Counted from the stretch's first letter, positions 2,747 to 6,169 are shown. The stretch is DNA of 9,706 nt from a virus (IMGVR_UViG_2778261009_000007), one strand, 5' to 3'. Notes: generated by a model from the sequence alone, not told the origin. Translations and numbers: made by a program.

Positions 2747-5700
2747 ATGGAAAGAAAAAACGCCAACATTGACGATGTTATAAGGACAGTTGAAACCGCC
2801 AGCGCAAAAGAGCTGGAAGAGCTTGCAGGTATCCGGGAAGCTGTTGAAGATTTGAAAGGGGGACGCGTTGCAACTGTTGATCCTGTCTCTCGCAGTGTGT
2901 CGGCATTAAATCGCACAATCGAAAATTCCCGGCCAGACTTTGTGGCCAATGCGCCATCAGTGGACCCTATTGTTGACGCAATGAAACGGCTTAATTTAGG
3001 GGACGTTTCTCGTGTAGTTCAGGAGGGCATTGCTCAACAGGAACAGCAGGCCAAATCAACTACACCAAAGGGTAAAAAACGACGCAGGAAGGCTATACCA
3101 GAGGATATAAAGGCACAACGGACCGAAGCAGCCGAACACGCTCGCGAAATGTTCGATCAAAAAGGCGGTGCGCAAAAAAGCCAAAACCAACGCGATGCGC
3201 GTGGTCGTTTTATTGGAAAGTCAGGGAGTAAGGCCGCAGCGGAAGATGCCCGTGCTGAACGTGCTGAAAAGGCCAGGCGCAAAGAGGATGATGAGCGTCT
3301 AAATGCTGAATCAGGTTTATTAAAAAAACTGTCAAAAGTAGCTGAAGGCATAGGTAACCCTTCAGAGACTCGTGCCGTCGATGCGTTAGGTTATGCCGTT
3401 GCTGGTCCATTGTGGGCAGCAGGGAAGGAGCTTGGCGGGATATCAAAAGAAGTTGGTGGATCGCTTAATGGTGCCAGAAAGTCTATTGCCGATGTGATTC
3501 GTGGCAATGACGATAACAGCCGTAGAAAAGGTTTTTTTAGGCGTAAATCGCAAAATAGTGCCGATGTCGTTCAGGTTAACACCCAAAAACGGACGGTTCA
3601 GGAACTTCAGGAGCAGACCAGCGAAATTAAAGAGGGCAATGACAAGATTCTCAGCGCCCTTGATCAGATAGCCAAAAACACCGGGAAAAAGAAGGGCGGC
3701 TTGCTGTCCAAACTATTTAGCCTGTTAGGGAAGGGGGCCGGTGGCGTCGCGTCGTTGTTAATGGGGCGTGGCATGCTGAAAAAAGCTGGAGCACTCGCTT
3801 TTGGCGCTCTGGGGGCAAAGAAACTTGTAGGAATACTACGCGGTGGTGGCAAGAAGACTCTCGCCCATGAAGGCGGAGATTTGGCTGCCCGGGCAGCAGG
3901 TAAACTTGGATTAAAGGCAGTTGGTAAAGGGGCGTTACGCGCAATTCCCCTGGTCGGCACAGTGGCTGGAGGTATTTATGATGCGGTAACCGGTTGGAAT
4001 GATACAGAAGCGCAACGTCGAGCGTTTGGGCTTAAATCAGGACAAGATCCATCATTCCAGCAAAAAGCCGCTTATACGTTAGCTAATGTTCTTGATATGG
4101 GGGGACTGGTATCTGGTATTAGCAGCGCCATTGGTGAGGTTCTCAAATCACTTGGATTTGAGGATATCGGCAATATGTTGCAATCATTTTCGACGGAAAG
4201 TATTGCCCAGGCCATTGATAGTGGGATTACCAACTTAGAAACATATATTTCTAACCTTGGCGACACGATTTCTACCAAGTTCGATGATTACACAGCAAAG
4301 ATTGGTGATGCTGTTTCAGCATGGTTTAGCGATACATCTAATAAGCTGCTTGAAAAGCTGGATGCCATCAAAGACTTCTTTACTGTCGATAACCTGAAAC
4401 AGGTTTTCAGTGATGCAATTGATAGTGCAATTGATTTCATTAAGAACCCAGGGAAACACATTAAAGAGGCGGCTGGTAATATTTGGGATGGGGTTAAAAA
4501 TTTACCCGGTAAAGCATTAGATGCAGCGGTTGATGCCGTTAAAAATACCCCTGCGGCAATGATTGTATCAAAAATACCCAATCCGATCGGCGAGGCTAAT
4601 GCGAAAGAAATCACTCCAGAGTTAAAAGCTCCGGTTAATAGCCACCAGGAGACGTCTAATTCTAAAACTGAATCCGATGCCAAACAGAGTAATATTGCTA
4701 CCCGCGTGATAAATGCGGCACTGGACACAGCGAAAGATAGCAATAAAACAGTTAAACAAACTGCCAATCAGATTATCAATGCAAATGCCGTAGAAACGGG
4801 CAATAGCGCGTTGCAGAAAATTGATAAAGCTATTGGTCAAAATAGCTCGTCATCATCCTCGCTTAATACCACTGGCACCAGGAATGACATTCAGAAAGCT
4901 GCGGATACCTACAATAATGGCAACTTGGATGTAAAAGTCGGAAGTCTTGGCGCTGAAGGTAAGGCAAATCTCGATAAGTTGGCTCCGTATTTTGCTGAAC
5001 TAGAGAATAAATATGGCCTTCCTGAAGGTACTCTTTACGCGATCGCTGCAACTGAATCTGGTGGTGATCCTAACGCAAAATCTACGCTTACAAGATCACC
5101 AAATGGAAAGCTAAGTGGTGGCGCTCTCGGAATGTTCCAGTTTACGAGCGTTGCTCGTGAGGAAACTGGATTATCCCGGGAAGATTCTTTTAATCCGGAA
5201 AAATCGGCAGAAGCTGCGGCTCTTCTCATGAGCAAGTATCTGAAGCAAGCCAATGGAGACTTAAACGAGGCCATCACTGCATATAACGCTGGGTTTGGCA
5301 CTATCAATAAGTGGAAAAAAGGCACAGGTGACTTATCGAAAGAAAACCGTGAGTACGCGATCAAGGTCAATACTCATCGTGCTCGCTATTTAGGTGGTGA
5401 AATCTATACACCTGGAGCAGGAGCACAGGGTGGGGCGCAATATGGAGTGAGGGGACCACTGCCTGATAACGCTGTTATCGATCAGTCTACTGGCTTGGCG
5501 TTTACCCCTGGTGATAGCCCGTTTGAGAAAGGCGGTCTGGTAGACAAAATCGGCAATGCTGTTGGCGTTAACGATCTGGTCAACAAATTCATGAATGGCC
5601 GGGGTATGCGTCGGGAAGTCGTTCAGGGAACGCTCGAAGAACGTGCACGAGGGAAGGGGACCGCAACAGCAGCTGGCAATGTGTATGTTGATACCCCGAT

Positions 5701-6169
5701 GCCAGTTGAAGAGGCGCGTCCGGTGGCCAACAACTCAAGTTACTTTGACCAGCTCGGCGCACAAATGGGGATTGATGGACTATTCGATAAACTCCGCAAC
5801 TCGCCGGGGATGCGGAAAAATAATGCGCCTGAACCAGCCTCCACGTCCCAGGTGACGACTGCCGCCAACGATTTGCAGCAACCAACCGGTCGTATGCAGA
5901 TAGACGGACAGGTTATTAGTGACCTTGGCGGCTCCGGTGCCAAGCCGACAATGCAGTTGGCTGATAATACCGTTTCACTTGATGGTGAAACGAAGCGGCT
6001 GTTTGCGCAGATGACCTCATTGCTTGCCAGGATTGAAGAGCACACTAAAGACTCGGCGAAAGGCCAGGGAACTGTCGTAAAGGTCAGCACGCCTCAACCG
6101 GGCGTTATGCGCACGGTGCCACTGTCAATTGATGATCCGTTGATGAATGACTACGCGAGAGTTGATTGA
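2747..6169 (+). CDS. sit: Tail tape-measure-like protein with internal lytic transglycosylase (SLT) domain, 1140 aa; resembles the P1 Sit (structural injection transglycosylase) class
   Basis: Seen: 3423-nt ORF, ATG 2747, TGA 6167-6169. Has an N-terminal charged helical region, a basic patch KGKKRRRK, a Gly/Ala/Leu/Lys-rich hydrophobic segment and SLT motifs (AIAATESGGDP, GALGMFQF, AITAYNAG). Established: tape measure proteins are long, helical and often carry peptidoglycan hydrolase domains. Gene symbol rests on my recollection that P1 Sit is a ~1140-aa transglycosylase-bearing protein; unverified. Confidence 0.85.
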   Translation: MERKNANIDDVIRTVETASAKELEELAGIREAVEDLKGGRVATVDPVSRSVSALNRTIENSRPDFVANAPSVDPIVDAMKRLNLGDVSRVVQEGIAQQEQQAKSTTPKGKKRRRKAIPEDIKAQRTEAAEHAREMFDQKGGAQKSQNQRDARGRFIGKSGSKAAAEDARAERAEKARRKEDDERLNAESGLLKKLSKVAEGIGNPSETRAVDALGYAVAGPLWAAGKELGGISKEVGGSLNGARKSIADVIRGNDDNSRRKGFFRRKSQNSADVVQVNTQKRTVQELQEQTSEIKEGNDKILSALDQIAKNTGKKKGGLLSKLFSLLGKGAGGVASLLMGRGMLKKAGALAFGALGAKKLVGILRGGGKKTLAHEGGDLAARAAGKLGLKAVGKGALRAIPLVGTVAGGIYDAVTGWNDTEAQRRAFGLKSGQDPSFQQKAAYTLANVLDMGGLVSGISSAIGEVLKSLGFEDIGNMLQSFSTESIAQAIDSGITNLETYISNLGDTISTKFDDYTAKIGDAVSAWFSDTSNKLLEKLDAIKDFFTVDNLKQVFSDAIDSAIDFIKNPGKHIKEAAGNIWDGVKNLPGKALDAAVDAVKNTPAAMIVSKIPNPIGEANAKEITPELKAPVNSHQETSNSKTESDAKQSNIATRVINAALDTAKDSNKTVKQTANQIINANAVETGNSALQKIDKAIGQNSSSSSSLNTTGTRNDIQKAADTYNNGNLDVKVGSLGAEGKANLDKLAPYFAELENKYGLPEGTLYAIAATESGGDPNAKSTLTRSPNGKLSGGALGMFQFTSVAREETGLSREDSFNPEKSAEAAALLMSKYLKQANGDLNEAITAYNAGFGTINKWKKGTGDLSKENREYAIKVNTHRARYLGGEIYTPGAGAQGGAQYGVRGPLPDNAVIDQSTGLAFTPGDSPFEKGGLVDKIGNAVGVNDLVNKFMNGRGMRREVVQGTLEERARGKGTATAAGNVYVDTPMPVEEARPVANNSSYFDQLGAQMGIDGLFDKLRNSPGMRKNNAPEPASTSQVTTAANDLQQPTGRMQIDGQVISDLGGSGAKPTMQLADNTVSLDGETKRLFAQMTSLLARIEEHTKDSAKGQGTVVKVSTPQPGVMRTVPLSIDDPLMNDYARVD
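4979..5395 (+). other. Lytic transglycosylase (SLT) catalytic domain within the tape-measure-like protein; putative catalytic Glu codon at 5054-5056 (residue ~770)
   Basis: Seen: translated segment LAPYFAELENKYGLPEGTLYAIAATESGGDPNAKS...GALGMFQFTSV...AITAYNAGFG contains the E-S ... G-L-M/F-Q ... A-Y-N-A-G motif series typical of SLT domains. Boundaries are approximate. Confidence 0.75.

What the first reader, a model, noticed from the sequence alone, without database searches (positions are those of the whole stretch)
2747..6169. 1140-aa tail ruler combining tape-measure architecture, an SLT cell-wall hydrolase domain and a membrane-type glycine-zipper segment
A single protein appears to carry three functions: a long helical ruler, a lytic transglycosylase domain (residues ~745-880, putative catalytic Glu ~770) and a hydrophobic Gly/Ala-rich segment (~313-417). 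That is the architecture expected of an injected tail protein that both drills peptidoglycan and contributes to a DNA conduit. It resembles what I recall of P1 Sit, in which case it is known biology rather than novel.
Basis: partly seen in the sequence, partly recalled or inferred. Interest (0 to 1): 0.45.

Follow-up and report, generated by a model that had tools for sequence, protein, structure and literature searches.

The report
Phage P1 Sit tape-measure transglycosylase
This 1140-residue gene is sit of a P1-like phage, the already described tail tape-measure protein that carries a cell-wall-cutting (lytic transglycosylase) domain, so it is known biology rather than a discovery.

Summary
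The ORF at 2747-6169 (+) is real. It is 98% identical, with no gaps, to Sit of phage P1, and it sits in the conserved late operon pmgC-tub-pmgB-sit-pmgA-bplA-16-R-S. GenBank already calls Sit a "structural injection transglycosylase; putative tail ruler". Later work found it in virions, found it essential, and treats it as the tape measure protein (TMP).

The SLT/GH23 domain is confirmed:
- Pfam SLT, residues 748-867, E = 5e-26.
- Motifs E770-S, G795MFQ and A845YNAG are all present.
- The AlphaFold model has pLDDT 94-98 there, and every top PDB fold match is a lytic transglycosylase.

The Gly/Ala-rich segment (313-417) is real in composition, and it adjoins the block best conserved among distant relatives (381-500). 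It is not a transmembrane-grade glycine zipper: it is strongly basic, GxxxG is not enriched, and it is modelled as low-confidence coil.

The ruler role is inferred, not shown. No curated TMP family matches. At 1.5 A per residue Sit spans 1710 A, against a 2120 A tube.

Side findings: natural in-frame Sit length variants of 1140-1307 aa, and an IS26 end that cuts tail-fibre gene S.

Verdict: already known, low interest.

The parts
531..549 (+). Late promoter LPsit (-22 box AAATGACAA, -10 TAGAAT) that drives the pmgC-tub-pmgB-sit... operon
   Evidence: Position transferred from the curated P1 annotation AF234172. The alignment shows one mismatch in the -22 box and an identical -10. Homology to reference P1 starts at 529, just upstream.
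1784..2665 (+). pmgB, an essential tail-morphogenesis gene immediately upstream of sit; proposed tape-measure or hub assembly chaperone
   Evidence: P1 annotation. The knockout makes no tails, and the protein is absent from virions (PMC9024508). Weak, sub-threshold Pfam hit to T4_baseplate PF12322 (E = 0.003).
2747..6169 (+). sit: 1140-aa tail tape-measure / structural injection transglycosylase (stop codon TGA at 6167-6169)
   Evidence: 98% identical to P1 Sit AAQ14011.1. phrog_2533 matches full length at E = 0.
2849..3145 (+). Residues 35-133: a 99-aa unit, single-copy here and in P1, tandemly duplicated in the 1229-1307-aa Sit variants
   Evidence: Alignment A1. The duplication junction occurs in 137 plasmid records and 3 phage records.
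3683..3997 (+).
   Evidence: Composition and hydropathy. AlphaFold coil with pLDDT below 50 for 311-409.
3887..4246 (+). Residues 381-500: the conserved core outside the enzyme domain (near-invariant P401, G404, D412, A413, G416, D419, Q423, F427, Q439, K440, G452, G453, G470, A487)
   Evidence: Distant representatives of 900-1450 aa match here. Conservation in A2. pLDDT 72-88 for about 410-450.
4592..4642 (+). Residues 616-632: the 17-aa unit EANAKEITPELKAPVNS, one copy here and 1-5 copies in relatives; it lies in the low-GC variable spacer (residues 501-720, GC 0.42)
   Evidence: Alignment A1. The spacer is almost unoccupied in distant relatives. GC content.
4988..5347 (+). Residues 748-867: SLT / GH23 lytic transglycosylase domain. 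Catalytic E770 is at 5054-5056, GMFQ at 5129-5140, AYNAG at 5279-5293; a 10-aa indel site is at 5084-5113.
   Evidence: Pfam E = 5.4e-26. Motifs. Alignment to solved lytic transglycosylases. AlphaFold pLDDT 94-98. All top Foldseek PDB matches are lytic transglycosylases.
5867..6166 (+). Residues 1041-1140: conserved C-terminal end (helix 1080-1102, then a Q-P-x-P-R ... P-L ... D-P motif with near-invariant P1118); inferred to anchor Sit in the baseplate hub
   Evidence: Conservation in A2 and A3. Low-resolution density in the centre of the P1 baseplate is attributed to Sit (PMC12810830). The anchoring role is inference.
6169..6525 (+). pmgA (T4 gp25-like inner baseplate wedge); its ATG overlaps the sit stop codon (TGATG)
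   Evidence: P1 annotation. Sequence. Assigned as baseplate wedge protein 1 in the cryo-EM model.

Best explanation
The ORF is sit of a P1-like phage-plasmid (genus Punavirus). Sit is the protein that fills the lumen of the long contractile tail, and it carries a lytic transglycosylase domain near its C-terminal end.

Proposed mechanism:
1. Expression. sit is transcribed from the late promoter LPsit as part of the tail/baseplate operon. This is shown by homology to the curated P1 annotation.
2. Assembly. Sit's conserved C-terminal ~100 residues sit in the hub/spike cavity of the baseplate. The tube (BplB) polymerises around the rest of Sit, and the conserved N-terminus meets the tail terminator. 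Sit thereby sets or limits tail length. This step is inferred.
3. Infection. When the sheath contracts, Sit is expelled ahead of the DNA. Cryo-EM of contracted particles reports loss of the TMP.
4. Wall cutting. The SLT domain lies about 270 residues from the distal end, so it enters the periplasm early. It cleaves the MurNAc-GlcNAc bond using E770 and locally opens the peptidoglycan. The domain and catalytic motifs are shown; the activity is inferred.
5. The basic Gly/Ala-rich segment and the adjoining conserved core (about 313-500). Their role is open. They are either the binding surface for the assembly chaperone (PmgB) or a membrane-interacting element during DNA passage. Sequence alone does not decide between the two.
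For: Identity and context:
- 98% identical to P1 Sit with no gaps.
- 99.2% nucleotide identity to Punavirus P1 over 1-9579.
- Conserved synteny pmgB-sit-pmgA-bplA-16-R-S in P1 and in the more distant phage D6.

Virion and essentiality data from the literature:
- Sit was found in purified virions: 23 peptides, 27.8% coverage (PMC9024508).
- CRISPRi knock-down of sit abolishes plaque formation (PMC10695390).
- Cryo-EM assigns Sit as the TMP and reports low-resolution density in the baseplate centre and loss of the TMP in contracted particles (PMC12810830).

SLT domain:
- Pfam E = 5.4e-26.
- The ES, GMFQ and AYNAG motifs are present.
- The ES motif aligns to that of a solved lytic transglycosylase.
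- AlphaFold pLDDT is 94-98 across about 720-890.
- The Foldseek PDB hits listed (top 50 of 132) are GH23 enzymes (MltD, Slt, MltC, MltE, MltF, Slt70, goose-type lysozymes) apart from T7 gp16, itself an SLT-domain protein, at rank 44; probability 1.00, about 165 aligned columns, rmsd about 3.5 A for the best domain-only alignments.

Ruler-like traits:
- The N-terminal two thirds are mostly helical in the model: 445 of 719 residues.
- The N- and C-termini are conserved, while the middle (501-720) is variable.
- The gene tolerates in-frame length changes of +99 aa and n x 17 aa in natural variants. One such variant is in the plaque-forming phage phi456 (PMC10967188).
Against: - I found no experiment showing that changing Sit's length changes tail length, and none showing muralytic activity of Sit. 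The library search was limited to open-access papers.
- Sit is not resolved in either P1 cryo-EM study.
- Neither Sit nor any of 41 diverse relatives aligned with it matches a curated tape-measure family in Pfam at E <= 0.01, and no NCBIfam tape-measure model was hit by the six proteins scanned there. Family profiles hit no solved TMP chain outside the SLT domain.
- The ruler arithmetic fails at the textbook 1.5 A per residue. 1140 aa gives 1710 A, or about 1490 A once the globular SLT domain is discounted. The tube is 53 rings x 40 A = 2120 A.
- The published claim that Sit's length fits the tail used a 120 nm tail, about half the cryo-EM value.
- The CRISPRi result could include polar effects on downstream baseplate genes.
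Confidence: 0.88

Rival explanations
1. Sit is an internal head (core/ejection) protein like T7 gp16. On this view it is stored in the capsid and ejected to form a trans-envelope channel, and it is not a tail-lumen ruler. Several GenBank records annotate it this way.
For: - Annotated as 'protein inside capsid D' in MH422554 and MH445380/1, and as 'internal (core) protein' in JL22.
- T7 gp16 is the best PDB sequence match of the family profile (E = 2e-11) and of the isolated domain.
- A T7 core structure appears in the fold search at rank 44.
- phrog_342, 'internal virion protein with endolysin domain', matches at E = 1.7e-17.
Against: - Every one of these matches is confined to the SLT domain: gp16 residues about 22-143 against Sit 748-877. 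Nothing else aligns.
- In gp16 the SLT domain is N-terminal; in Sit it lies at 748-867 of 1140.
- sit lies inside the tail/baseplate operon, between pmgB and the gp25-like wedge gene pmgA, with overlapping stop and start codons.
- P1 is a myovirus whose known internal head proteins are the Dar proteins.
- Cryo-EM reports TMP release from the tail on contraction.
Confidence: 0.04
2. Sit is a tail-lumen or baseplate-associated muralytic protein, but it is not the length determinant. Tail length would be set by something else, such as the hub protein gp6 (whose mutants give variable tail lengths) or tube/sheath/terminator kinetics. Alternatively, Sit spans only part of the lumen.
For: - 1140 aa at 1.5 A per residue is 410 A (19%) short of the 2120 A tube, and about 630 A short without the SLT domain.
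- Gene 6 mutants give variable tail lengths (PMC9024508).
- No curated TMP family matches.
- About 46% of the AlphaFold model is non-helical.
Against: - gp6 is resolved by cryo-EM as the trimeric hub and has only 338 aa. A hub defect can disturb length indirectly.
- Sit is the only protein of suitable size in the tail module.
- If the 454 non-helical residues outside the SLT domain run at about 3 A per residue, the total reaches about 2170 A, so an extended-plus-helical ruler does fit.
- Conserved ends with a variable, indel-tolerant middle is the pattern seen in experimentally dissected TMPs such as that of TP901-1 (PMC5099701).
Confidence: 0.08
3. This concerns only the Gly/Ala-rich segment and the adjoining core (about 313-500). 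The rival view is that it is the docking site for the assembly chaperone during tail construction, not a membrane-inserting glycine zipper that forms a DNA conduit.
For: - The segment is not transmembrane-grade and is strongly basic (+16 over residues 301-400). GxxxG is not enriched.
- The best-conserved part (381-500) has sequence-specific invariant polar residues (D412, D419, Q423, Q439, K440), which is typical of a protein-protein interface.
- In TP901-1, the first hydrophobic region of the TMP is essential, and the authors favoured chaperone recruitment over membrane insertion (PMC5099701).
- pmgB, directly upstream, is essential for tail formation and is absent from virions.
Against: - No interaction data exist for PmgB and Sit.
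- PmgB's only family hint is a sub-threshold match to T4 gp51-type baseplate assembly proteins.
- Basic amphipathic Gly-rich stretches can bind membranes peripherally, so a membrane role after ejection is not excluded.
Confidence: 0.5

Closest known systems
Bacteriophage P1 Sit (AAQ14011.1; orf47 of AF035607; phrog_2533)
   Same: It is the same protein: 1117/1140 identical residues with no gaps, the same length, the same operon position and the same late promoter. The GenBank note reads 'putative structural injection transglycosylase; putative tail ruler'.
   Different: There are 23 scattered substitutions. The flanks of the element differ from reference P1: a DUF5384 gene replaces simC on the left, and IS26 sits in gene S on the right.
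Tape measure proteins with an embedded peptidoglycan hydrolase (T5 pb2, mycobacteriophage TM4 Tmp)
   Same: They are long tail-lumen proteins that carry a muralytic module near the distal end. P1 researchers themselves draw this comparison (PMC9024508).
   Different: Those phages are siphoviruses, and their enzyme modules differ. No sequence relationship to Sit was detected outside the catalytic domains. For TM4 and TP901-1, length or motif mutants were tested experimentally (PMC1796659; PMC5099701); I found no such test for Sit.
D6-type 'tail injection transglycosylase' (phrog_7182) and other Sit-like proteins of 900-1450 aa
   Same: They share the N-terminus, the RDxxGRF motif, the 381-500 core and the C-terminal QPxPR...DP end. 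In phage D6 the gene position is also the same, pmgB-sit-pmgA.
   Different: The enzymatic module is swapped. Pfam SLT is found in 17 of the 42 aligned proteins (Sit included). A T6SS VgrG3-like C-terminal domain is found in P0160. A module scoring as phrog_873 'endolysin' or phrog_2276 'tape measure' is found in the D6-like group. The middle spacer (Sit 501-720) is not shared.
T7 gp16 internal core protein
   Same: It has an SLT-family lytic transglycosylase domain carried into the periplasm by an ejected virion protein, and it gives the best PDB sequence match to Sit's domain.
   Different: Similarity is limited to about 120 residues. In gp16 the domain is N-terminal, the protein is stored in the head of a podovirus, and it has no ruler role.
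Bacterial family-1 lytic transglycosylases (Slt70, MltC, MltD, MltE, MltF; GH23)
   Same: They share the fold and catalytic motifs, and they are the top structural matches at 22-23% identity over about 165 columns.
   Different: They are housekeeping periplasmic or outer-membrane-anchored enzymes. In Sit the domain is embedded in a 1140-aa virion protein.

Membership tests
P1 Sit orthologue group (phrog_2533) | Full-length sequence match to Sit | tested here: met
   BLASTP gives 1117/1140 identical residues with 0 gaps. phrog_2533 matches 1-1140 against 1-1130 of 1130 profile positions at E = 0.
P1 Sit orthologue group (phrog_2533) | Position in the late tail/baseplate operon, between pmgB and pmgA | tested here: met
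   The gene order in the window equals the P1 annotation. The LPsit promoter is conserved at 531-549.
SLT / GH23 family-1 lytic transglycosylase (Pfam PF01464) | Profile match above the curated threshold | tested here: met
   90.9 bits against a 21.3-bit cut-off, E = 5.4e-26, residues 748-867, covering profile positions 2-115 of 117.
SLT / GH23 family-1 lytic transglycosylase (Pfam PF01464) | Catalytic Glu in the E-S motif, plus the G-L/M-M/F-Q and A-Y-N-x-G motifs | tested here: met
   E770-S771, G795-M-F-Q798 and A845-Y-N-A-G849 are present. The ES motif aligns to IMQIES of the solved lytic transglycosylase 9vi7. That this Glu is the catalytic acid rests on established knowledge of the family.
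SLT / GH23 family-1 lytic transglycosylase (Pfam PF01464) | Lysozyme-like alpha-helical fold | tested here: met
   AlphaFold pLDDT is 94-98 over about 720-890. The Foldseek PDB hits listed are GH23 lytic transglycosylases or goose-type lysozymes apart from T7 gp16 (rank 44), at probability 1.00.
SLT / GH23 family-1 lytic transglycosylase (Pfam PF01464) | Non-hydrolytic cleavage of MurNAc-GlcNAc giving 1,6-anhydroMurNAc | not testable with these tools
   This needs a biochemical assay. I found no report of one for Sit in the open-access library.
Phage tail tape measure protein (functional class) | Gene lies between the tube/chaperone genes and the baseplate genes, and is the longest gene of the tail module | tested here: met
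   The order is tub, pmgB, sit, pmgA, bplA, 16. The same order holds in D6.
Phage tail tape measure protein (functional class) | Protein length matches tail-tube length at about 1.5 A per residue | tested here: not met
   1140 aa x 1.5 A = 1710 A, against 53 rings x 40 A = 2120 A. The required ratio is 1.86 A per residue. It fits only if the roughly 450 non-helical residues are extended at about 3 A per residue.
Phage tail tape measure protein (functional class) | Predominantly alpha-helical, elongated | tested here: inconclusive
   DSSP on the AlphaFold model gives 611 of 1140 residues helical, and 445 of 719 in the N-terminal part. Mean pLDDT is only 58.4, and 514 residues are below 50.
Phage tail tape measure protein (functional class) | Membership of a curated TMP sequence family (for example Pfam PhageMin_Tail PF10145, or the NCBIfam/TIGR tape-measure models) | tested here: not met
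   No TMP family appears for Sit at E <= 1 in Pfam or E <= 0.01 in NCBIfam, nor in Pfam at E <= 0.01 for any of the 42 proteins of alignment A2. The only links are via the enzymatic module to phrog_2276, and one relative (P0160) to phrog_58 at 4e-7.
Phage tail tape measure protein (functional class) | In-frame deletions or duplications change tail length | not tested
   I found no such experiment. Natural alleles of 1140-1307 aa exist but have no tail measurements. The phi456 paper gives none.
Phage tail tape measure protein (functional class) | Located in the tail-tube lumen and expelled on infection | not testable with these tools
   Literature only: Sit is present in virions. Cryo-EM assigns it but does not resolve it, and reports the TMP lost from contracted particles.
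Phage tail tape measure protein (functional class) | Upstream chaperone gene with a programmed translational frameshift (G/GT type) | tested here: not met
   A +1-frame ORF at 2430-2735 overlaps the end of pmgB. It has no counterpart in D6, where pmgB ends 14 nt before sit. The PmgB C-termini align in the annotated frame.
Transmembrane glycine-zipper segment | Repeated (G/A/S)xxx(G/A/S) within an uncharged hydrophobic helix long enough to span a membrane | tested here: not met
   The maximum KD19 is 1.35. No uncharged run of 15 or more residues lies in 313-417. Lys or Arg occurs within every stretch of 15 residues, so no membrane-spanning length is uncharged. GxxxG occurs 4 times against 6.0 +/- 1.9 in shuffles. 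The segment is modelled as coil at pLDDT below 50. No dedicated TM predictor was available.
T7 gp16-type internal core protein | Homology beyond the SLT domain; N-terminal SLT; head location | tested here: not met
   Matches are confined to gp16 residues 22-143. The gene lies in the tail operon.

The most novel reading that the evidence does not exclude
P1 Sit may not be a simple all-helical 1.5 A-per-residue ruler.
- To span the 2120 A tube, about 40% of it would have to run through the lumen in an extended conformation of about 3 A per residue. Those parts would be the Gly/Ala/Lys-rich 311-400 stretch, the Pro-containing 17-aa repeat spacer and the post-SLT region.
- Otherwise Sit does not span the whole tube, and length is set some other way.
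- Natural populations of P1-like phage-plasmids carry in-frame sit alleles of 1140, 1229, 1235, 1239, 1256, 1273, 1280, 1297 and 1307 aa. The differences come from a 99-aa N-terminal duplication and from 1-5 copies of a 17-aa unit. These alleles would then be tail-length (or ruler-geometry) variants, a ready-made test that I did not find reported.
Probability: 0.3. Interest if true: 0.35.

Novelty: already known. Interest (0 to 1): 0.1.

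Why it matters
As a finding it matters little. Sit has been annotated since 1998-2004 as P1's structural transglycosylase and putative ruler, and recent proteomic, CRISPRi and cryo-EM papers treat it as the tape measure protein.

The value of this check lies in three things:
- It closes the lead as known.
- It corrects the 'glycine zipper' label.
- It shows that two parts of the accepted story still rest on inference: the ruler function, whose published length argument used a tail length about half the cryo-EM value, and the muralytic activity.

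The natural length alleles offer a cheap way to test the ruler function.

Tried and rejected
1. Programmed-frameshift chaperone. A 101-codon ORF in the +1 frame (2430-2735) overlaps the 3' end of pmgB and runs almost to the sit start. I rejected it. D6 has no equivalent ORF, its pmgB ends 14 nt before sit, and the PmgB C-termini align in the annotated frame.
2. Sequence link to solved tape-measure chains. A single-sequence phmmer search of Sit against PDB found nothing at E <= 0.01. The full-family profile (A2) found only SLT domains. The C-terminal profile (A3) hit only designed coiled coils, through its one amphipathic helix, which I take to be a composition artefact.
3. Curated TMP families in Pfam and NCBIfam, for Sit and for diverse relatives: none found.
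4. Tandem repeats at the DNA level inside sit. Only a trivial 9-nt x 2 repeat turned up. The 17-aa unit is single-copy in this window.
5. Heptad or 11-residue periodicity of hydrophobic residues: no clear signal in any segment.
6. Literature on tail lengths of long-Sit phages. The phi456 paper gives no tail measurement. The Lobocka 2004 P1 genome paper is not held in the library.
7. T7 gp16-like core-protein reading: rejected, because the similarity is confined to the SLT domain.

Full report
**What is in the window.** The 9706-base window is a piece of a P1-like phage-plasmid (genus Punavirus).
- Megablast against phage genomes gives 99.2% identity to Punavirus P1 MH422554 over 1-9579. It gives 98.2% to the reference P1 genome over 529-9579.
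- The mechanical ORF list, read against the curated P1 record AF234172, gives this gene order, all on the + strand:

| Coordinates | Gene |
|---|---|
| 15-500 | DUF5384 gene |
| 581-1147 | pmgC |
| 1158-1769 | tub |
| 1784-2665 | pmgB |
| 2747-6169 | sit |
| 6169-6525 | pmgA |
| 6522-7955 | bplA |
| 7952-8791 | gene 16 |
| 8870-9304 | R |
| from 9316 | start of S |

- The late promoter LPsit of the P1 annotation is conserved at 531-549: -22 box AAATGACAA and -10 TAGAAT.

**Checking the observation.** The ORF is exactly as described: ATG at 2747, stop TGA at 6167-6169, 1140 codons.
- Its product is 1117/1140 identical to P1 Sit (AAQ14011.1) with no gaps.
- Pfam SLT (PF01464) matches residues 748-867 at E = 5.4e-26, 90.9 bits against a 21.3-bit threshold.
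The other family-1 lytic transglycosylase motifs follow at G795-M-F-Q and A845-Y-N-A-G.
- E770-S771 aligns with the E-S of a solved MltC-type enzyme.
- I built a 42-sequence alignment of diverse relatives (A2) and ran AlphaFold2 on full-length Sit. The overall model is poor (mean pLDDT 58.4), but residues about 720-890 reach 94-98.
- A Foldseek search of that model against the PDB returns lytic transglycosylases at the top: MltD, Slt, MltC, MltE, MltF and Slt70. Goose-type lysozymes, which are also GH23, follow. Probability is 1.00, with about 165 aligned columns at 22-23% identity.

**The Gly/Ala-rich segment.** The compositional observation holds.
- Residues 301-400 contain 39 Gly+Ala, 19 Lys+Arg and only 3 Asp+Glu, a net charge of +16.

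The label 'membrane-type glycine zipper' does not hold up:
- The highest 19-residue Kyte-Doolittle mean anywhere in Sit is 1.35, at residue 448. That is below the value of about 1.6 usually taken for a membrane span.
- Inside 313-417 there is no run of 15 uncharged residues.
- GxxxG occurs 4 times, against 6.0 +/- 1.9 in shuffles of the same segment. Small-xxx-small occurs 21 times, against 19.1 +/- 2.5.
- AlphaFold models 311-409 as coil at pLDDT below 50.

The region is nevertheless not junk:
- A search of 1.84 billion cluster representatives found dozens of 900-1450-aa proteins whose best match to Sit lies within about 320-525.
- In the alignment of 42 such proteins, residues 381-500 are the best-conserved block outside the enzyme domain. 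Near-invariant positions are P401, G404, D412, A413, G416, D419, Q423, F427, Q439, K440, G452, G453, G470 and A487.
- Many of these are polar and sequence-specific, which looks more like a protein-protein interface than a lipid-facing helix.
- In the lactococcal phage TP901-1, the first hydrophobic region of the TMP is essential. The authors favoured chaperone recruitment over membrane insertion (PMC5099701).
- I therefore rate 'chaperone or assembly interface' and 'membrane-interacting element' as about equally likely. The data do not decide between them.

**Family architecture.** The relatives share several elements:
- the N-terminus;
- an RDxxGRF motif (Sit 149-155);
- the 381-500 core;
- a C-terminal end with a QPxPR...PL...DP motif.

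The middle of the protein (Sit 501-720) is almost unoccupied in distant relatives and has a lower GC content, 0.42.

The enzymatic module is interchangeable:
- Pfam SLT in 17 of the 42 aligned proteins, Sit included;
- a T6SS VgrG3-like C-terminal domain in one member (P0160);
- a module scoring as phrog_873 'endolysin' or phrog_2276 'tail length tape measure protein' in the D6-like group.

In phage D6 the 1260-aa homologue occupies the same slot, pmgB-sit-pmgA-bplA-16-R-S.

**What is already known.**
- GenBank AF234172 annotates Sit as 'putative structural injection transglycosylase; putative tail ruler', and the 1998 fragment AF035607 calls it 'structural lytic transglycosylase'.
- Gonzales et al. 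2022 detected Sit in purified virions (23 peptides, 27.8% coverage). They noted the SLT domain at about 750-900 and the helical N-terminal two thirds, and they assigned Sit as the TMP. They argued that it supplies the muralytic activity that P1 gp5 lacks (PMC9024508).
- CRISPRi against sit abolishes plaque formation (PMC10695390).
- Cryo-EM of P1 lists Sit as the TMP but could not resolve it. It reports low-resolution density in the baseplate centre and loss of the TMP from contracted particles (PMC12810830).

**What is inferred rather than shown.** I found no experiment that changes Sit's length and measures tails, and no enzymatic assay of Sit. This is within an open-access library only.
- Neither Sit nor any of the 41 relatives aligned with it matches a curated tape-measure family in Pfam, and none of the six proteins scanned in NCBIfam does.
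- Profiles of the family hit no solved TMP chain outside the SLT domain.
- So 'tape measure' is a label by analogy (size, position, predicted helices), not by homology.

The length argument also does not close:
- Cryo-EM gives 53 tube rings with a 40 A rise, about 2120 A, within a 2450 A tail (PMC10304247).
- 1140 residues at 1.5 A give 1710 A, or about 1490 A once the globular SLT domain is discounted.
- The 2022 paper's statement that about 750 helical residues are 'congruent' with the tail used a 120 nm tail, roughly half the cryo-EM value.
- With the secondary structure of the AlphaFold model (515 helical and 454 non-helical residues outside the SLT domain), the tube length is reached only if the non-helical parts run at about 3 A per residue.
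- This is possible, because those parts are Gly-, Pro-, Ser- and Thr-rich. But it means Sit is not a textbook all-helical ruler, or else it does not span the whole lumen.

**Natural length variants (seen in passing).** The closest database homologues, at 88-97% identity, come in discrete lengths: 1229, 1235, 1239, 1256, 1273, 1280, 1297 and 1307 aa. Alignment shows three in-frame causes:
- A 99-aa tandem duplication of residues 35-133. The first half of the two copies is nearly identical and the second half has diverged.
- One to five copies of a 17-aa unit, EANAKEITPELKAPVNS. This window has one copy, at residues 616-632.
- A 10-aa indel inside the SLT domain, between the ES and GMFQ motifs.

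The duplication junction is present in 137 plasmid records, out of about 475 that carry a Sit C-terminus. It is also present in three phage records, including phi456, which forms plaques (PMC10967188). The long allele is therefore functional. No tail lengths are reported for it. These alleles are a ready-made test of the ruler hypothesis.

**Rivals.**
- The 'internal capsid/core protein' annotation in some GenBank records comes from similarity to T7 gp16. That similarity is confined to the roughly 120-residue SLT domain, and the gene's operon context contradicts the annotation. I give it 0.04.
- 'Lumen or baseplate enzyme but not the ruler' is kept at 0.08 because of the arithmetic and the old gene-6 phenotype. 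However, gp6 is now resolved as the hub.

**Mechanism I commit to (confidence about 0.88 for identity and overall role).**
1. Late transcription from LPsit.
2. With PmgB's help, the conserved C-terminus of Sit is built into the hub cavity.
3. The tube polymerises around Sit until the N-terminus is reached and gp24 caps it.
4. On contraction, Sit leaves first.
5. The SLT domain, about 270 residues from the distal end, cuts glycan strands using E770.
6. The DNA follows.

Shown: identity, domain, motifs, fold, operon context, and (from the literature) virion presence and essentiality. Inferred: lumen location, length determination, enzyme activity, and the role of residues 313-500.

**Verdict.** Already known; interest 0.1. 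The only mildly novel residue is the mismatch between Sit length and tail length, together with the undescribed natural length alleles.

Noticed in passing
window 9580-9706 (and gene S from 9316): The last 127 bases are the end of IS26: the terminal repeat GGCACTGTTGCAAA, 100% identical to IS26 copies in at least 5000 plasmid records. It interrupts tail-fibre gene S after codon 88. All P1-like phage records stop matching at 9579. This element may therefore have a disrupted tail fibre or carry an IS26-bounded insert.
   Followed up: partly
window 1-528: The left end does not match reference P1, where simC lies. It encodes a DUF5384 protein at 15-500 (Pfam E = 2e-43), as in MH422554, where the gene is annotated 'putative membrane protein' downstream of a lipoprotein gene. 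The break in homology lies at about 529, immediately upstream of the late promoter LPsit (531-549).
   Followed up: partly
window 2849-3145, 4592-4642 and 5084-5113 (sit residues 35-133, 616-632, 780-789): Natural in-frame length polymorphism of Sit among P1-like elements (1140 to 1307 aa). The causes are a 99-aa tandem duplication, 1-5 copies of the 17-aa unit EANAKEITPELKAPVNS, and a 10-aa indel inside the SLT domain. The duplication junction occurs in 137 of about 475 PLSDB plasmids with a Sit C-terminus, and in the plaque-forming phage phi456. I found no report of it and no tail-length data.
   Followed up: partly
sit as a whole (2747-6169) against the published P1 tail dimensions: The published argument that Sit's helical length fits the P1 tail used a 120 nm tail (PMC9024508). 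Cryo-EM gives a 2120 A tube and a 2450 A tail (PMC10304247). Sit would need 1.86 A per residue.
   Followed up: yes
window 1784-2665 (pmgB): PmgB has a weak, sub-threshold Pfam match to T4_baseplate PF12322 (residues 16-122, E = 0.003). It also has a CxxC motif plus a distal Cys, and both are conserved in the D6 homologue. This hints at a hub or tape-measure assembly factor rather than a classical G/GT-type chaperone.
   Followed up: partly
window 2430-2735: A 101-codon ORF in the +1 frame overlaps the 3' end of pmgB and ends 12 nt before the sit start. It is not conserved in phage D6, so it is most likely a chance ORF and not a frameshift product.
   Followed up: yes
window 6167-6171: The sit stop codon and the pmgA start codon overlap (TGATG). 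Similar overlaps occur at pmgA/bplA (6522-6525) and bplA/gene 16 (7952-7955). This suggests translational coupling through the baseplate genes.
   Followed up: no
window 4247-4906 (sit residues 501-720): The variable middle spacer of sit has a clearly lower GC content (0.42) than the rest of the gene (0.45-0.54). It is almost absent from distant relatives, which suggests a lineage-specific or mosaic insert.
   Followed up: partly
GenBank records MH422554, MH445380/1, ON018986, NC_050152 (homologues of 2747-6169): Sit is inconsistently annotated in public records: 'protein inside capsid D', 'internal (core) protein', 'lytic tail fiber protein', 'endolysin'. These names come from transfer of SLT-domain similarity.
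   Followed up: yes
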